64,000 bases of DNA from Microbotryum violaceum (taxonomy: Eukaryota). The DNA is taken from assembly GCA_001244265.2 (NCBI GenBank), contig CDLV01000013.1:186001-250000 (forward strand). The letters are read 5' to 3'. Under the pieces are notes generated by a model, which worked only from the letters and a program-made list of their open reading frames with translations, had not been told where the DNA came from and searched no databases. A program made the translations under genes and the position numbers. Positions 14,157 to 22,038 of the stretch are shown one piece after another. Every line of letters begins with the position of its first letter. Within the stretch, counting starts at the first letter, position 1.

Positions 14157-15031
14157 ATGAACAATGTCATGATCCCCAAGGACGAGCAGTCCGCCCAGGA
14201 TCTGGAGTTCATGGATCAAGCCATTGTCATGGTACGTACACCTTGTCGCTATGTGGTGCTCGAGCTTCGCACGCACCGACCTCTTCCCCACCTTGCCTCA
14301 CTAATTATCTCATCGGCCGCCTCCAGGCCGAGGAAGCGTTCAGCGTATCCGAAATCCCGGTCGGCTGCGTATTCGTCTACGACGACCGAATCATCGCGCG
14401 CGGTCGTAACCGTACGAACGAGCAACGCAACGGTACCTCCCACGCCGAATACGACGCCCTACGTACGATCCTCCCCTCGCTCAAGACCCAAACGGCGTTG
14501 GATATGACCCAGGTCACGCTTTACGTTACTGTCGAACCTTGCATCATGTGCGCGAGCGCGTTGAGACAAGTTGGGATCGGCAGGGTCGTGTATGGCTGTT
14601 CGAATGACAAGTTTGGCGGCACCGGTGGGGTTGCGGATATTCATAACGAGTTTGAGTTATGGCATCGAAACGACTGAATGATGTGAATCGTATCGAGCTG
14701 ACCCACCCCCCACCCTCCACGAATTTTTTCCCACCAGTCCTCGGTTGATTTACGCTCCGCCGTACGAAGCCGTCGGCGGTTACCGAAGAGAAGAGGCGAT
14801 CATGCTCCTGCGGCGATTCTACATATCAGAAAACACAGCAGGTGAGGCACTTCGTCCAGCTCGAGTGTTCCCGATGAGCCGATAAGCTGACTCTAACCCA
14901 CGACCTCGGTTAATCCAGCGCCCAATCCAAAGAAGAAGTCGAATCGAGTGCTCAAGCACGTCATTGACGAGATCCCCACTCCAACAAGTAGGACACAATC
15001 TCCAGCTGGTTCCGATTCAGGTGCGAGGTAG
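14157..15031 (+). CDS. TAD2: tRNA adenosine-34 deaminase catalytic subunit
   Basis: FMDQAIVM|AEEA..EIPVGCVFV, zinc-deaminase motifs HAE and VEPCIMCASAL, GCSNDKFGGTG, EAIMLLRRFY..EN..AP.PK. Four exons, stop TAG at 15029-15031. Confidence 0.93.
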
Positions 15032-15423
15032 CCACTAGGGTACTACAGCGAGTGCTGCGACTCGATGCGGCAGCGAGAAGGGAAGCAATCTGAATCAGTT
15101 CGAACAGATGGTGTTCTCTTTAACGGTATACTGAGGGTATTCATTTAGGTAGATGGTTATGTTTATGTAACAAGGGTGTATTTGGATCGAGAAATGAGAT
15201 GAGTGATGATTTCACGGGCCGAACTTTGAACGTGAGCACGTCCAATGGGGGACCAATATCTAGGACAGGTGCGAGAACGAACCCAGAAATAAGAAACAGG
15301 GCAACAGCATGAAGATAATGCAAATGGAATGCGAGGCTCTAAGGTGAGAAAACATGGGGTTCTACTGGACCTCAAAGGTTCCATTAAGCTCCGGACGGCC
15401 AGACCCAAGGGTCAGTGGCGTCA

Positions 15424-18328
15424 TCAAGCGAACACACCAACGAAAGAAATCACGTCCCCCTGCATATTCTTCAACGGACTCAGATGAAGCGTACCCTCAA
15501 CTTTCGGACCCCTGAACGAAAGTGCGCATCTCAACGAGCCAGAAACACCTTCTTCGATCGTTGTCTTGATTCGTTGGCGTATCCTCTTTTGGTCTGGCTC
15601 GTGGACTGTCGGTTTGACGAGGTTGAGGAGGTCGAGGTGGACGAGTTTGGAGGTGTCGACGTCTTGGAGGGAGGCACCGGGTAGGCCGAGGTAACGGAGG
15701 AAGCCAGAGGTGACGAAGAGGATCTTGCGATCTGTTTTGAGAGCCGCAAGTGGCGGTCAGTAATGTTTTCGGGGCGGGAAATGTGAAAGGTCACGAAGGA
15801 AAGCGCTCACTATCAGCTCGCAAAATGACGACTCGTTCGTACGTCATCTGGAAATCCAACAACTTCTTCTCGATCGGTGCGGCCCCATGTTCTATCGAAG
15901 GATCGACACCTGGTTGTTTGAATCGAACATCCTTGACGGACGCCGCACGCTTCCGAGGAATTGGCCTCGAAGGCGGGCTCACGGTTGACGTTCGGGATTG
16001 AATAGGAGCGAGGATAAGCGGTGCGGGGACCTGTCGCTGTTCTTTCTTGCTCTTTGATGAACCCGATCCTTCGGTTCCTTTGGAACGACTGAACAAGGAG
16101 AGGAAGCTAGGGCGTTTGGTGACGGCGGGTTGCGCAGAGCCACTCATCATGTCCTCGCACGACATCATTGTCGAAAGCGCAGCGGGCTCAACGGTCGAGT
16201 ACCTCCTTCTCGGCGATGGCTTGAATGTTGGGATGGTCGTGCTCGGCGATTTGGGGGCCATAGACTCCTTAGGACTCAGGGCGGAGGGTTCAATTCCGCC
16301 TTGTTCGCGAAAGATGTTGGACTCGACAGCGTCGGTATAGGACCCCGGGTCAATGACCGGTCCACCTTCCGTATCATCGGACGACAAGACGAACGACAAA
16401 TCCTCTCCCGAGCCAGCGGCGATCGCACCGGTCAAATTCGTTTGCCCTCCAATGAAGTACATTAATTCCCCCGCCGCATCCCGAAGGGGCAAGATGCACA
16501 ATAGGTTCCAGAACGGGGCCCCCGAAGCGGTGTAGTTGAGCAAGAGTTGCGTAATCGGTTCCTCCTTGTCGATGGCGGTACGGATCGCTTGAACGCTCTC
16601 CGGTGCCGTCGCTTGACCTTGTAAGAAACGACAGTTACGGCCGATGATTTGATGCGCGGCGTAGCCCGTCAAGGCGCAGAAAGCCGGTGATGCGAGGACG
16701 ATAGGGGCGTCTGGTAGACGGGGGTTTGTGAGGCAAAAGACGTCTCCGAGACCGCTGCGTTCGTCGTTCGTGAGCTCGTATTTTGAGAGCTGAGCACGCG
16801 TGTGTTGCAAGAGGCGGTGTCGGATGAAACCCTGTTTGTGTCGGAAATGACAGAGGCTCAGCTTTCAGAAGCTGGCTATGCTGACAGTTCTGACTTCGAA
16901 CCTACATGGAATTCATTCGCGTACAACGTGTTAAGCAAATGTCGACTCGGCTTCTCCAACCCTAACCCGACGACCGAAAGCGCCGTCAACTGTTCTCCCG
17001 TGTCCCTCGCGAAACTCGGAGCGAATGGAGCGATTGTGGCGTTCTCTAGCGCAAAATGCACCTCTTGAATCGCCTTGGCGGCCATCGCGCTTCGACTCGT
17101 TGTCGATTTCAACGTATCAAGATCCTTCCATAGTTCGAGAGCATGAACGGCAGCAGTGGGTCCTCCAGTTCGAGAGAGGTAGTTGTGGAACTGGGCAAAG
17201 CCCGCAGGTGTTGCGAGGAAGGCATCGAACGTATTGCGAGACAGGAGGCGCGCGAGTGAAAACGCCAACGAAGCCTGCAAAGGCGACAGCGCCGCGGGGG
17301 GGAACGGATGCGAAGATCTACCTTTCCACGGGTCCGAAAGGTTCAGAGGTCGTTCGGGAAGATGCGAGAAACGTATCGAGCTCGAGACCGAGACGATCGA
17401 ATGCGCGTAGGCCGGTGCGCCGATGCCGACGGTCGGGGCCAAGCCTGGCTGAACGTCGGCGACGGGTGAATATTCGTCCCGGAAGGTCCTCTCCGCCAAC
17501 GTGGCAAGTACGCTCTCCTTGTCGAATGAATCGAAGGAGGTAGGTGCGGTAGACGGTGAATTCAAGTCGGTGACCGTGCAGGTACCGTGGGCCCCGTCGT
17601 GCAGAGCATGGTCCTCGTCGCCGCTCGAGTCGCCTTCAGTCAATTCTGGTCCGAGCAAACGTGGCCGTAAGGGGTCCAAACTGGTCAGCTCAATAGCTCT
17701 GCCTTCTACCCAAGACATGGAAAATCGTGAAGCCCGACTGGAGCTAGTCTCATGAAAAGTCCCGAGTGCATCCCGTCGGACCGAAAAGACCGAAGGGGCC
17801 TCCTTGCCAAGTCTCACTACGAGCACGCCTAAAGAGGCTCGAGGGCTCGGGGACTCACTAGCGTTTGCGCTTGCTCCCCCCACTATGAGTGCTGGCCCTG
17901 ATGACGGTGCCGCCGCACGTGACGAACCATTCGCCCGTAAAGATGGATCCATGACATCGTTCGCTTTCGGACTTGAAGGATCATTCTGCAGCGCATCGCG
18001 ACTACTTGATCGTATCCGCAAGGTCAAGGCCGGCATCGATGAATACGCCGACGGGTCGAGGCCCGATGGCTTGGCCGGGCCTCGATTGCCTGCTGCCGGG
18101 GCCGAAGATGATGGCGCATCGTATCTGCGCGATTCGATTCGGAGATTGACGTCAAAAAAACCGCGTCGGTCACTCAGGAAGGTTCTTTGAAAAGCCAGGA
18201 CCACAGGAAATGACTCTGGGCGGACCGAACGGATGGACTCACGAGTGGGCGCTGTGGAAAGAACGTGGAGTCGTCGGTACTTCCGGCAGAGGCCCTGCAG
18301 GCGCGGGGAGAGGGGCCCAAGAACTCAT
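15424..18328 (-). CDS. RGS-LOV-PAS/DUF blue-light photoreceptor (BcLOV4-like architecture)
   Basis: Exons 18328-18243, 18184-16906, 16831-15811 and 15731-15424 with consistent phases. RGS-like region (FDAFLATPAGFAQFHNYL...LELWKDL), LOV domain with GRNCRFLQG (~16617-16643), and C-terminal PAS-like domain ending GTLHLSPLKNMQGDVISFVGVFA*. Confidence 0.88.
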
Positions 18329-18942
18329 CTCGGACCTCGGAGATCGGCTGACGGTATCGGAGATCTGGGTGTCGACTTCAAATCGGTTGGACCAGGAGAG
18401 CACTCGATGTGCAGAGTGGGAGTTGGAGAGGTGAAGATGCAAGGAAGGGGGCAGACCAACGTACTTGGCAGCGGAAACGTGGCAGGAGCCCCAATAAGTG
18501 GATTCAATCCGAAGAGTCCGCTTCCGTTTTGCTCGCTGGATGAAGAGGAGATGGCCAAAAGCGAAAATTGCAAGGAGGCCCCGACTTTTGTCCAGCCGCT
18601 GAAACAGCCCTAAGCAGACCGAAACGTTCTATTGCGTCGCAGTCGCACTCGAAACAAGCGTATTCAATTCAGGCGATTTTGGTGCTGATGCACATCAAAC
18701 AGCTCGGCCTAGATCTAGAAATCAGAGCGCCGAACGTTGAAGGATCGGACTTCAATATAGTGGTGAGCAGGGCCACCTCAGATCAGGTTTGTCTCCCCAG
18801 GGTGTAAGGTGTGAGCCTGGGCCTGCACTGCAGCTGAGAAGCATATTTTGAACTCTGGTGAAGGCTTGCTTCGGCGGCGTCAAACCCTGCCTAATTCGGC
18901 GCAAAACTCAAGGGCTCGATTCGCGGGCGCGATCGCCCTCAA

Positions 18943-19320
18943 AGACGATCGCGTAGGCCGGTGCGCCGATGCCGACGGGTGAATATTCGTCCCGGAAGGT
19001 CCTCTCCGCCAACGTGGCAAGTACGCTCTCCTTGTCGAATGAATCGAAGGAGGTAGGTGCGGTAGATGGTGAATTCAAGTCGGTGACCGTGCAGGTACCG
19101 TGGGCCCCGTCGTGCAGAGCATGGTCCTCGTCGCCGCTCGAGTCGCCTTCACTGCCAATTCTGGTCCGAGCAAACGTGGCCGTAAGGGGTCCAAACTGGT
19201 CAGCTCAAAGGCTCTGCCTTCTACTCAAGAATGAGAAATCGTAAAGCCCGACTGGTTGGATTGTCTGGAGCTAGTCTCAAAAGTCCGAGTGCATCTCGTA
19301 CCGACAAAACCGAAGGGGGC
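18943..19320 (-). pseudogene. Degenerate direct-orientation duplicate of part of RGS-LOV exon 2 (source ~17391-17799)
   Basis: Near-identical to 17391-17799, with 6-nt and 33-nt deletions, a +2 indel, a 13-nt insertion and increasing divergence towards 19320. Confidence 0.92.
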
Positions 19321-19337
19321 GGGGCAGGCGAAGTACC

Positions 19338-20110
19338 CCATGGTCAATTATGAACCGCAGCGTGTAAGCAATGTTGCTTTCGTAGGTCATCACCGCTTCA
19401 GCCGTGACCAGTTCCTGAAAGTTAACCTCGCCACGCTCGAACGCGCCTCGGACCTTAGGGTACGCTCGCAGGTCGCTGATGGTGATCTTGATGAAGGGCA
19501 CGGTGCCATCACCCTTGTATCCCCATAAAGAGCGCTTGTGTGCGACTTTGATCGAGTGAACCGGGTTCGAATCGCCAGGGATCATGGCCTATTGAATTTG
19601 TTTGAGCTTGTTCGAGTTGAGCGTCCGAAAACAGATGCACGGTCGGACAAAGGACTTACATTGAGGTGACCCAATCAACGGGGCACAAAGGTCATTCACA
19701 AAGCCCTTTGGCGCAGCAATCCAAAAATAAGGCATGAAACCCGTGATATGCAGCAACACAAAATGCCCAGCCTGCTCGTGGTCATCTCGTAGTGATGAGC
19801 TCTAGCGAATACGATTCTGCTAGGAGAGTGCGACGACGTACCTGTGTTACACCAAATGCACGAATCTGCGGGACCGTCCCGGGCACCACGTGTTCTTCGA
19901 GCTCGATCTGCTGGAAAACTGTGATCCGATTCGGGGTCGATGTGTCAGCTTGGGTGGGCGGACTGGGCACAATTTGCAGAGCTTAAAGGACGAACTCAGA
20001 GCCATGATCTCTCGTTGTGTTCGATACGCTGGAATGATCTACTACACAAGTGCACCTTGCGTGAATGGACATGATCGTGGGCCAAGATTTTAGGTCTTTT
20101 CCACTCGCGC
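19338..20110 (-). pseudogene. POL3: Truncated, frameshifted N-terminal fragment of the DNA polymerase delta catalytic subunit, introns retained
   Basis: EWKRP...|FQQIELEE...IRAFGVTQ|AGHFVLLHITGFMPYFWIAAP..|..HKRSLWGYKGD..PFIKITISD..PKVRGAFERGE..TYESNIAYTLRFIIDHG. Exon 19771-19660 is 112 nt between phase-0 junctions, so it carries a +1 frameshift. No polymerase domain follows. Confidence 0.88.
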
Positions 20111-22038
20111 GTGGATGCGATTGTCGTCTCGCATAGGTGTGCGTCCGAAATCAATTTCGGACAGGAGATGGTGCGCCGGCGCTGGGGCGGGGTGGGCACA
20201 CGGACCCAAACGCCCACCCGTCTCTCGGTTCCTGACCATCAACATTCGCCTACAAGTGCTCTCGACACAAAAAAAGTCAGACACTATGCCTCCCCACCCT
20301 TCTGACACCCCCGAACGCCCCAGACCTGCCCTGCAGGCTCTGGAACCATTCCTTCGCCTCCTGGCGATCTCCCACCGTCAGATCGAGAGCGTCGTCGCCG
20401 ATGCGCTCGGTCGATGCCTCGGGTTCTTGACGGGCGCGCAGTGGAAGGAGCTTGGCTTGAACCAAAACCGCTGGCGCGCGTTTTTCATGTCCATACTCCA
20501 CCTGCCCTAACCCCGCACCCAAGTCAGCAACCACCTCGAGCTCGTCGCCTCTCTCTCTTTTCTCCTTCCTTCTCCTCGTCGACGCGCTTTGCACTTCTCG
20601 CACCACTTAATCTTGCCGACATCGCCCCCCTTCTCAGGAGGGTACGAAACGGTGGCCTTTGTGGTGTGGTAGAGTCTGTCGTTCGATCCCTCCCACCGTC
20701 AAAAGTGTGAGTAACCACCTAGCTGTGATCGTGTTCGTGTGGCGTAGGGTCGGACTGACTCGTCTCGTGTTTACCCGTCTCGCGTCCATCTTTCACCACC
20801 CCACCTCCATCATCTTACCCCGCACGACCTCTCCCCTCTCCCCTCTCACTGCGATCTCTCGCTTCCTGTCTGTCACGGCGTCACGGCCCCATTAGCCTAT
20901 CCACTCGTCGACGAGTGTTGAATGGCGCCTACGGCATGTCACTGAGGTTGTTCCTGGTTTACAAGACCGCTTGCATTTGATCGTACCCTGTGAGTCTTTG
21001 CTTCGGCCCTTGATCGATCGATGGATCGATCGTGCTCGCCGGCCCTTGCAGTGACGACGGGCGAGGCGGGGCTGACGATTCGATCCTCGCCTACACTCTC
21101 CAGACAAGCAGCCTCGGAACCTCCACTGCGTTCCCGAATCGACCGGTCTCACCTGCTCGGATCGAAGGGGGTTCACGGTACCCCTAACATCAGTGAGTAG
21201 CATGTACCCTAATCCTATGGTACCAGGTAGCTTACTTCCGGTGTACGCGTCAACCTCCAGCTGCACACGGTCTTCAAGCCATATCCACCTCGGTCGACAA
21301 GGTCCCCTTCTGTTTCTGTTAATTTCGAATTGGTTACACCTCGGAACTCTATGTTGGCGGTGCTAAGTGGCAGGCGACTTGTCCTTGTTTAGCCTAGCCA
21401 GATCCAACTCCTACATTGAGCCTCCCTCGTGAACCCTTTCCGTGTTTTGTAGTTTTTGAGTGCACGTATCGAGGTGCGCATGCACCACGGATTTGAAATT
21501 CGACAATCAGCAAGTCTTTGGGGGTTCAGGCGATCGATCCGTGTGGTTCACTTTCGTTCGATCGGTTTGTATCGTACGGGTTTGCGCCAAAAAAAAAGAA
21601 GATACGATGCGTATTACGCATACGCATGGATCGGGCGTTCTCAAGGGTTCAAATCTTCTAGCCGGCGCAAAAGACATACTAGAGCCATAGAATGAGGCGA
21701 GGTTGAGCGTGCACTCCTACAACCACCAACGCACATACAAATAGCTTTGCAAAACGACACCGAATTCAAGAGTCGAACTGCCCGATGCAGGCTCGGAGGG
21801 GCTCGGTGTTGACACCGCCTCTCTCGGGGTATCGTCTCCACATTTCTAAGCCCGTCGACAGCATGTATCCCCATTTAAAACTCCGTGTGATGCTCACTCT
21901 AAAGCCTCCAAGCCTTCACATGTGTTGGTCTCGCTCTCGATCGTCTTGCTCGCGACTGCGCCCGCCCCAGAGACATGAACGAATCACTTGTAATACAGAT
22001 TGACTAGGACGTCCTTCCATCCCAGCTCCGGCTAGCGT

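What the first reader, a model, noticed from the sequence alone, without database searches (positions are those of the whole stretch)
15424..18328. Basidiomycete RGS-LOV-DUF photoreceptor with intact photochemistry residues
Seen: an RGS-like helical domain, then LOV with the adduct-forming Cys (GRNCRFLQG), flavin-contact Asn residues (LLNY, FWNLL) and signalling Gln (FIGGQ), then a PAS-like C-terminal domain. The last exon is missed by the ORF track. A low-complexity N-terminal extension of over 300 aa precedes the RGS region. Established: Botrytis BcLOV4 has RGS-LOV-DUF architecture and binds anionic membranes in blue light. Inference: this is a non-White-Collar light sensor in a yeast-like basidiomycete and a possible optogenetic part.
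Basis: partly seen in the sequence, partly recalled or inferred. Interest (0 to 1): 0.7.

Follow-up and report, generated by a model that had tools for sequence, protein, structure and literature searches.

The report
Anther-smut RGS-LOV blue-light sensor gene
An intact, spliced gene of an anther-smut fungus encodes a member of a known family of fungal blue-light sensors that jump to the cell membrane, but in this untested branch the G-protein-braking domain has lost its contact residues, so light probably signals through something other than G-protein shut-off.

Summary
Real, and a known class. The minus-strand gene has five exons, not four: a 213-nt in-frame intron was read through, so the N-terminal extension is about 240 aa, not over 300. 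The 806-aa product is identical to Microbotryum lychnidis-dioicae MVLG_01931. The LOV domain keeps Cys431, Asn463, Asn473 and Gln494. Its family aligns with ascomycete BcLOV4 relatives across RGS, LOV, linker helix and DUF (HHalign E 4.9e-60). Basidiomycete members were already listed in 2018 (7 of 66, PMC6099885), and this scan met the class before in lichen fungi (e1-7653061); I found none tested.

What differs: (1) the RGS-like domain has no Pfam RGS hit and 0 of 5 canonical G-alpha contact residues. These are kept in the ascomycete and chytrid members and almost wholly lost in 21 basidiomycetes. (2) The LOV-DUF linker is twice as long. (3) The membrane helix lacks the FKK/FFK motifs and is weakly amphipathic.

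Best reading: a blue-light membrane switch whose RGS-like domain is a dark-state cage, not a GAP (0.55). Photochemistry is likely (about 0.9) but untested. A diverged paralog and a WC-1-like gene lie elsewhere in the genome. Interest 0.4.

The parts
15424..18328 (-). RGS-LOV-DUF gene, 5 exons (18328-18243, 18124-17859, 17645-16906, 16831-15811, 15731-15424), 806 aa
   Evidence: Spliced product identical to P0256 = KDE07837.1 / MVLG_01931, 0 differences; all four introns skipped in run X6 contigs
18125..18242 (-). Intron 1, 118 nt, GT-AG
   Evidence: Joint; a second X6 contig (18095-18272) lies across it unspliced, so it is partly retained
17646..17858 (-).
   Evidence: Joint 17645/17859 in X6; absent from P0256, P0001, P0002
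16832..16905 (-). Intron 3, 74 nt, inside the last RGS helix
15732..15810 (-). Intron 4, 79 nt, inside the DUF
17284..18328 (-). Ser/Pro/Ala-rich disordered N-terminal extension, aa 1-238
   Evidence: pLDDT mostly under 50 in the model of the close ortholog P0001; composition
16787..17283 (-). RGS-like helical domain, aa 239-379; His285, Ala286, Pro324, Asn361, Gly365 stand where RGS4 has E87, N88, N128, D163, R167
   Evidence: HMM from 11 Pfam-RGS-positive homologs: 65 bits, E 5.5e-19, best of 1000 shuffles 2.5 bits; model pLDDT 90.9; alignments
16433..16753 (-). LOV domain, aa 391-497: Cys431 (16633-16631), Gln435, Asn463, Asn473, Gln494 (16444-16442); Cys397 in the register of BcLOV4 C258
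   Evidence: Cys-to-Gln spacing 63 and Cys397-to-Cys431 spacing 34 equal BcLOV4 C292-Q355 and C258-C292 (PMC6099885)
16310..16342 (-). Short helix after the LOV (aa 528-538), J-alpha candidate; aligns with a conserved basidiomycete FSP motif
   Evidence: Helix 545-554 in the P0001 model
16079..16117 (-). Candidate membrane helix AH1, aa 603-615 (KRPSFLSLFSRSK), with basic flanks
   Evidence: Aligns with the Sclerotinia FFKSFKK helix in MAFFT and HHalign; hydrophobic moment 0.39, net +5 over 26 aa
15941..15967 (-). Second basic patch (aa 653-661) inside a stretch that only the two Microbotryum orthologs have between AH1 and the DUF
   Evidence: 26 sequences
15427..15877 (-). C-terminal DUF, aa 683-806, PAS-like alpha/beta fold (the temperature-sensing domain in BcLOV4)
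   Evidence: pLDDT about 90; aligns with the ascomycete DUF; 15 of 15 PDB sequence matches at E<=10 are LOV proteins, best E 0.71; PAS clusters at 0.92-0.93

Best explanation
A cytosolic blue-light switch of the BcLOV4 class whose RGS-like domain no longer works as a G-alpha GAP. Steps: (1) the gene is intact and spliced (shown). (2) The LOV domain binds flavin, and blue light forms a Cys431-flavin adduct and flips Gln494 (residues shown; chemistry from established LOV knowledge; about 0.9). Cys397 suggests fast dark recovery, as in BcLOV4 (inferred). (3) The light state releases the helix at aa 528-538 and the linker, exposing the FLSLF helix and the neighbouring Lys/Arg patches, which bind anionic inner-leaflet lipids, probably helped by clustering (inferred from BcLOV4; about 0.6). 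(4) The RGS-like domain serves as the dark-state cage, a role shown for BcLOV4, and has lost the surface used to stimulate G-alpha GTP hydrolysis (residue loss shown; loss of activity inferred; about 0.75). (5) The DUF may re-cage the helix with warmth (analogy only). The output at the membrane is therefore something other than G-alpha shut-off, most likely delivery of a partner bound by the N-terminal extension, the linker or the DUF (inferred, partner not identified).
For: Gene model identical to an annotated protein and supported by spliced contigs. Adduct Cys and signalling Gln invariant in 26 of 26 aligned family members. Whole-architecture homology to ascomycete members, HHalign probability 100, E 4.9e-60, 445 columns. 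At family level a basic amphipathic segment is enriched in the linker: 25 of 52 homologs reach moment 0.5 against 7.6 expected from shuffles, and this protein's segment sits in that column. G-alpha contact sites read by eye, in the order E87, N88, N128, D163, R167: basidiomycetes 0, 0, 2, 3 and 2 of 21; Pezizomycotina 4, 3, 3, 4 and 4 of 4; a full-length chytrid member keeps 5 of 5, so the canonical surface looks ancestral. The Sclerotinia RGS matches human RGS7 at E 2.8e-11, this one RGS16 at E 0.77. N128 and R167 are needed for RGS4 GAP activity (PMC7895990, PMC11065749). Removing the RGS raises dark lipid binding of BcLOV4 (PMC6099885). The genome has three other loci over the Pfam RGS cut-off.
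Against: Nothing here is a measurement. This protein's own helix is weak: moment 0.39, matched by 49% of 2000 shuffles of its linker; no FKK or FFK. It lies 112 aa after the LOV Gln (51 in Sclerotinia) and 78 aa before the DUF Tyr (35), in a linker predicted disordered, so tight caging is harder to picture. Even among ascomycete homologs only 8 of 11 translocated (PMC12667789). The RGS fold match is middling: no Foldseek hit at E<=0.001, rmsd 13-16 because two helix pairs are modelled as single long helices, best Z 8.5. Residue counts rest on alignments near 22-24% identity, only four Pezizomycotina sequences, and reading by eye, although MAFFT and HHalign agree for this protein. Some RGS-homology domains bind G-alpha through other surfaces (recalled). 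No GAP activity was shown for an RGS-LOV protein in the parts of the papers I read.
Confidence: 0.55

Rival explanations
1. A true blue-light receptor that does not switch membrane binding: the long linker leaves the basic helix uncaged (always on the membrane) or too weak (never on it), and light instead controls clustering or a protein partner.
For: Linker 200 aa against 86-98 in four Pezizomycotina; weak helix without FKK/FFK; 6 of 52 homologs have no qualifying helix at all. Clustering and membrane binding depend on the charge balance of the J-alpha/AH1 region in BcLOV4, and 3 of 11 homologs did not translocate (PMC12667789).
Against: A basic amphipathic segment is kept at a similar distance before the DUF across most of the family (median 41.5 aa) and is letter-for-letter conserved between two Microbotryum species in an otherwise diverging linker.
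Confidence: 0.25
2. A light-gated regulator of G-alpha, as proposed for BcLOV4 and MoRGS5: light brings an active or G-alpha-binding RGS domain to the membrane and tunes cAMP or mating signalling.
For: The domain is RGS-derived. The isolated MoRGS5 RGS binds MagB in two-hybrid tests and the knockout raises cAMP (as cited in PMC6099885). The domain is kept and 94% identical between Microbotryum species.
Against: 0 of 5 canonical contact residues, with Pro at the N128 site and Gly at the R167 site; loss shared by nearly all 21 basidiomycetes aligned; no Pfam RGS match.
Confidence: 0.13
3. Not a working photoreceptor: a flavin-binding redox or temperature sensor, or a decaying gene beside a rearranged upstream region.
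For: Several homologs have substitutions at flavin contacts, including the paralog in this genome. The upstream region carries a mosaic of copied fragments.
Against: Every LOV motif residue checked is canonical here; the frame is intact, spliced, and 95% and 86% identical over the LOV exon to two other Microbotryum species.
Confidence: 0.07

Closest known systems
BcLOV4 / RGS-LOV-DUF (RGS-LOV-TSD, RLT) family; Glantz et al. 2018 (PMC6099885); preprint PMC12667789
   Same: Order of parts (disordered N-terminus, RGS-like, LOV, linker helix, PAS-like DUF); Cys-Gln spacing and the C258-type Cys; homology over all three domains to the Sclerotinia-type profile; members of the 2018 set (GAA97696.1, KDN36092.1, EDN96453.1 cluster) are among my homologs.
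   Different: 806 against 595 aa; linker about twice as long; no FKK/FFK; RGS has no Pfam match and none of five G-alpha contact residues. BcLOV4 itself was not retrieved; Sclerotinia P0361 stood in for it.
Canonical RGS GAP domains (RGS4, RGS7, RGS16)
   Same: Remote homology and helix order; 7 of the 10 best VIA rows and 33 of 42 listed Foldseek rows are RGS or RGS-homology proteins.
   Different: Contact residues lost; modelled as an elongated helical hairpin, rmsd 3.2-5.7 over 79-102 residues in VIA and 13-16 in Foldseek.
White Collar-1
   Same: A fungal LOV sensor; 37% identity over the LOV.
   Different: The WC-1-like gene on G000:C6 has LOV plus further PAS domains and no RGS; it is a separate gene.
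Phototropin LOV2 and Brucella LOV-HK LOV domains
   Same: 43-53% identity in the LOV core, rmsd 0.5-2.3.
   Different: No kinase; a single LOV.

Membership tests
RGS-LOV-DUF (BcLOV4 class) | Single LOV domain with adduct Cys, flavin-contact Asn pair and signalling Gln | tested here: met
   C431, N463, N473, Q494
RGS-LOV-DUF (BcLOV4 class) | RGS-homologous domain N-terminal to the LOV | tested here: met
   Transitive HMM 65 bits against 2.5 for shuffles; HHalign to Pfam-RGS-positive ascomycete members. The direct Pfam test is negative.
RGS-LOV-DUF (BcLOV4 class) | Low-complexity N-terminal region | tested here: met
   aa 1-238
RGS-LOV-DUF (BcLOV4 class) | C-terminal alpha/beta DUF homologous to that of ascomycete members | tested here: met
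   Aligned to the last strand; PAS-likeness itself only weakly supported
RGS-LOV-DUF (BcLOV4 class) | Polybasic amphipathic helix (AH1) in the LOV-DUF linker | tested here: inconclusive
   Right column and basic flanks, but moment 0.39, p 0.49, and no FKK/FFK
RGS-LOV-DUF (BcLOV4 class) | Flavin photocycle and light-switched binding to anionic membranes | not testable with these tools
   Needs protein and cell assays
RGS-LOV-TSD (RLT) | Temperature-dependent re-caging by the DUF, giving pulsed responses | not testable with these tools
   Known from BcLOV4 and 8 homologs that responded (PMC12667789)
Canonical RGS GAP domain | Pfam PF00615 match | tested here: not met
   No match at E<=0.1 or E<=1 on the exon; 25 of 43 homologs match at E<=0.1
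Canonical RGS GAP domain | G-alpha contact residues (RGS4 E87, N88, N128, D163, R167) | tested here: not met
   H285, A286, P324, N361, G365. RGS4 numbering assigned through the RGS7 alignment and recall.
Canonical RGS GAP domain | Compact RGS fold | tested here: inconclusive
   RGS chains lead both searches but best Z is 8.5 (rmsd 4.4, 91 aligned) and no Foldseek E<=0.001
White Collar-1 | LOV followed by two PAS domains, no RGS | tested here: not met
   One PAS stretch by Pfam, RGS-like domain in front

The most novel reading that the evidence does not exclude
Basidiomycetes (and separately or jointly the Taphrinomycotina) carry a second functional kind of RGS-LOV protein, in which the RGS domain was converted from a G-alpha brake into a pure light-released cage or a dock for a new partner. 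This would be a light-to-membrane signalling route in smuts, rusts, red yeasts and mushrooms that is independent of White Collar and of G-alpha, and a one-component optogenetic recruiter free of G-alpha cross-talk.
Probability: 0.35. Interest if true: 0.65.

Novelty: new variant of a known kind. Interest (0 to 1): 0.4.

Why it matters
What RGS-LOV proteins do in their own hosts is open; the standing proposal is light-controlled delivery of a GAP to G-alpha. A large branch that keeps the LOV chemistry, linker helix and DUF but drops the G-alpha surface says that the conserved function may lie elsewhere, and it makes that testable with a side-by-side GAP assay. No basidiomycete member was tested in the texts I read, so this gene also extends the BcLOV4 optogenetic and thermogenetic family by a distant, long-linker member. 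It gives Microbotryum, a model for host castration and sex chromosomes, a concrete candidate for non-transcriptional light sensing. The class, the architecture and its presence in basidiomycetes are already known, which caps the surprise.

Tried and rejected
Four-exon model (877 aa): rejected. Single-copy claim: rejected after one search found a diverged paralog. Direct RGS detection: Pfam negative, PDB phmmer E 0.77, ESM Atlas no usable hit. Whole-protein fold searches returned only LOV/PAS rows and did not test the RGS or DUF; the DUF was not folded alone. RGS-domain homodimer prediction gave no verdict (score 0.01) and is not used either way. Run search: no RNA holder listed; run X6 is treated as RNA only because its contigs skip GT-AG introns, and contig depth is not used as an expression level. 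BcLOV4 itself was not returned by three homolog searches and one profile search. A tree and scripted residue counts were planned but not made, because the script machine was lost; the counts were read by eye. Literature searches that found no paper on this gene or on a tested basidiomycete member: 0 papers with Microbotryum + LOV + photoreceptor; no listed paper holds MVLG_01931; PMC13608869 main text has no mention. Supplements of PMC4469406 and PMC5919739 (expression by life stage) were closed, and those of preprint PMC12667789 (full list of 11 tested hosts) were not seen; both could bear on expression and on the claim that no basidiomycete member was tested. Assembly artefact as the cause of the upstream copy: not supported, as a contig of run X2 carries the junction, though X2 may be the same material as the window. 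Earlier findings by sequence: none.

Full report
Gene. The region holds one minus-strand gene from ATG 18328 to TGA 15424. A first model with three introns gave 877 aa and all quoted motifs. Laying four public runs on 15200-18940 showed that contigs of run X6 (kind not on record) skip four stretches, 15732-15810, 16832-16905, 17646-17858 and 18125-18242, each GT-AG on the minus strand. The 213-nt one is in frame and stop-free, which is why it was read as part of a long N-terminal extension. The five-exon product is 806 aa and has no difference from P0256, KDE07837.1 / MVLG_01931 of Microbotryum lychnidis-dioicae, annotated only as hypothetical or PAS domain-containing. The best homologs of the LOV exon are from M. 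saponariae (95%) and M. intermedium (86%), among 273 hits at E<=1e-20 out of 8000 candidates scored.

LOV domain. Pfam PAS_9 matches at E 1.3e-15 and solved LOV domains at E 2e-30. A model of the ortholog P0001 (43 sequences, mean pLDDT 61.4, high only in three domains) matches LOV structures at Z 21.1, rmsd 1.8 over 113 residues. Cys431, Gln435, Asn463, Asn473 and Gln494 are canonical. The Cys-to-Gln distance (63) and a Cys 34 residues before the adduct Cys equal BcLOV4 C292-Q355 and C258; changing C258 slows the BcLOV4 photocycle (PMC6099885). A photocycle is therefore likely, by established LOV chemistry, but not shown.

Family. I read parts 1-4 of 7 of Glantz et al. 2018 (PMC6099885) and passages of its supplement. 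It defines the class as low-complexity region, RGS, LOV, polybasic amphipathic helix and DUF; lists 66 members, 7 of them Basidiomycota; and cloned five proteins from ascomycete hosts (phylum recalled). From preprint PMC12667789 I read passages and section 12: the DUF senses temperature; 8 of 11 homologs translocated; the word basidiomycete does not occur in its main text; its supplement was not seen. Members of the 2018 set are among my homologs (GAA97696.1, KDN36092.1, the EDN96453.1 cluster). A profile of 43 close homologs (basidiomycete where named) aligns with a profile of 5 ascomycete members over RGS, LOV, linker helix and DUF (probability 100, E 4.9e-60, 445 columns, 24% identity). Membership in the class is established; BcLOV4 itself was not retrieved, and Sclerotinia P0361 stood in.

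RGS-like domain. Pfam RGS does not match this protein but matches 25 of 43 homologs at E<=0.1. An HMM built from the same region of 11 of those 25, none from Microbotryum, finds aa 241-379 at 65 bits, E 5.5e-19; the best of 1000 shuffles scores 2.5 bits. Folded alone with 76 sequences, the domain reaches pLDDT 90.9 and is all helix, with two very long helices. Foldseek gives no E<=0.001, but 33 of the 42 rows listed are RGS proteins or GRK2 (RGS-homology domain recalled), at rmsd 13-16. VIA-align ranks RGS7 first (Z 8.5, rmsd 4.4, 91 aligned), and 7 of its top 10 rows are RGS or RGS-homology domains, below the tool's safe level for helical bundles. So descent from RGS is well supported and a compact RGS fold is not proven.

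Loss of the G-alpha surface. The Sclerotinia domain matches human RGS7 at E 2.8e-11 and keeps the SEN, IN and D-x-x-x-R signatures; this domain matches RGS16 at E 0.77. RGS4 N128 and R167 are needed for GAP activity, and the conserved stretches are E82-N88, A123-R134 and K154-S171 (passages of PMC7895990 and PMC11065749; the roles of E87, N88 and D163 are partly recalled). In alignment A3 (21 basidiomycetes, 4 Pezizomycotina, 1 chytrid fragment, chosen by me from the hits; read by eye), the sites E87, N88, N128, D163, R167 are kept in 0, 0, 2, 3 and 2 of 21 basidiomycetes and in 4, 3, 3, 4 and 4 of 4 Pezizomycotina. This protein has His, Ala, Pro, Asn, Gly, and HHalign gives the same register for its ortholog. 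A full-length chytrid member and one unnamed member keep 5 of 5, while Saitoella keeps 0 and Neolecta 1. The canonical surface thus looks ancestral and lost in basidiomycetes and Taphrinomycotina; no tree was built, so the number of losses is open. Three other loci in the genome pass the Pfam RGS cut-off. That the domain is not a GAP is inference.

Linker and helix. Across 52 homologs, 46 have a basic amphipathic 11-mer in the LOV-DUF linker, and 25 reach moment 0.5 against 7.6 expected from shuffles. Here the segment KRPSFLSLFSRSK (aa 603-615) aligns with the Sclerotinia helix but scores 0.39, no better than 49% of 2000 shuffles of its own linker, has Ser on its polar face and no FKK/FFK. The linker is 200 aa (family median 154.5; Pezizomycotina 86-98), with extra sequence and a second basic patch between helix and DUF. 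Membrane switching is plausible and less certain than in BcLOV4.

DUF. Well folded in the model and homologous to the ascomycete DUF. All 15 PDB sequence matches at E<=10 are LOV proteins (best E 0.71) and language-model features point to PAS clusters at 0.92-0.93, behind three unnamed clusters at 0.94. PAS-like is a fair label on weak evidence.

Other LOV genes. A search with P0001 found only this locus and a LOV-PAS-PAS WC-1-like frame on C6. A search with the M. intermedium paralog P0172 found a second, intron-rich RGS-LOV-DUF gene at G000:C11:82689-85694, about 118 kb away, with Ser for the Gln after the Cys motif and Thr for the second Asn.

Surroundings. A convergent deaminase gene (TAD2-like) ends about 390 nt downstream. 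Upstream, 620 nt from the ATG, lies a mosaic: a copy of this gene's 17404-17798 at 18950-19318, a DNA polymerase delta fragment (19320-20002, 92% to C4), a C5 fragment (20001-20505, 97%) and a truncated 1.24-kb repeat (20510-21503). It does not break the gene.

Verdict. The class and its presence in basidiomycetes are known; the scan met it before in lichen fungi (e1-7653061). What this gene adds is an untested branch with a degenerate G-alpha surface, a doubled linker and a weak helix. Searches found no paper on this gene or on that loss; subscription papers and closed supplements were not seen. New variant of a known kind; interest 0.4.

Noticed in passing
window 18950-21503: Mosaic of abutting pieces: copy of this LOV gene (exon 3 plus intron 2; 33-nt deletion at a 6-nt microhomology), DNA polymerase delta fragment from C4 (92%), fragment from C5 (97%), and a truncated copy of a 1.24-kb non-coding repeat. 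Looks like templated insertion or element-mediated capture; no element type assigned. A contig of run X2 carries the left junction.
   Followed up: partly
window 18950-19318 versus 17404-17798: Identity gradient: nearly identical up to about 17695, across the exon-intron boundary, then many changes and indels; fits a recent gene-conversion tract on an older copy.
   Followed up: partly
window 18243-18940: Run X6 contigs cover the whole upstream region and skip 18787-18863, which reads GT-AG on the plus strand: a spliced transcript opposite to the LOV gene that runs towards the gene copy and could make antisense RNA to exon 3.
   Followed up: partly
G000:C11:82689-85694 (-); loci L028-L033: Second, diverged RGS-LOV-DUF paralog with adduct Cys and Gln but altered flavin contacts; ortholog of M. 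intermedium BQ2448_3818, whose linker helix is strongly amphipathic (moment 0.72).
   Followed up: partly
G000:C6:1433690-1434640 (+); locus L027: WC-1-like LOV-PAS-PAS open frame of at least 981 aa.
   Followed up: partly
P0003, P0004 and gene pairs such as P0009/P0048, P0012/P0018, P0023/P0026, P0024/P0108: In Sporobolomyces and Rhodosporidiobolus the family occurs as neighbouring gene pairs by locus number, or as two units in one predicted protein.
   Followed up: no
window 16222-15941 (aa 568-661): Basic Ser motifs (RRYS, KRPS, KRAAS) that resemble PKA sites (recalled consensus) lie in or beside the basic patches; phosphorylation could tune membrane binding. Not tested for enrichment.
   Followed up: no
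window 14158-15031 (+): Intron-containing TAD2-like zinc deaminase gene, convergent with the LOV gene.
   Followed up: no
P0205, P0370 (Cladochytrium), P0233 (Saitoella), P0268 (Neolecta): RGS-LOV-DUF proteins occur outside the Dikarya in a chytrid, with a canonical RGS surface, and in Taphrinomycotina with a degenerate one; the 2018 set was Dikarya only.
   Followed up: partly
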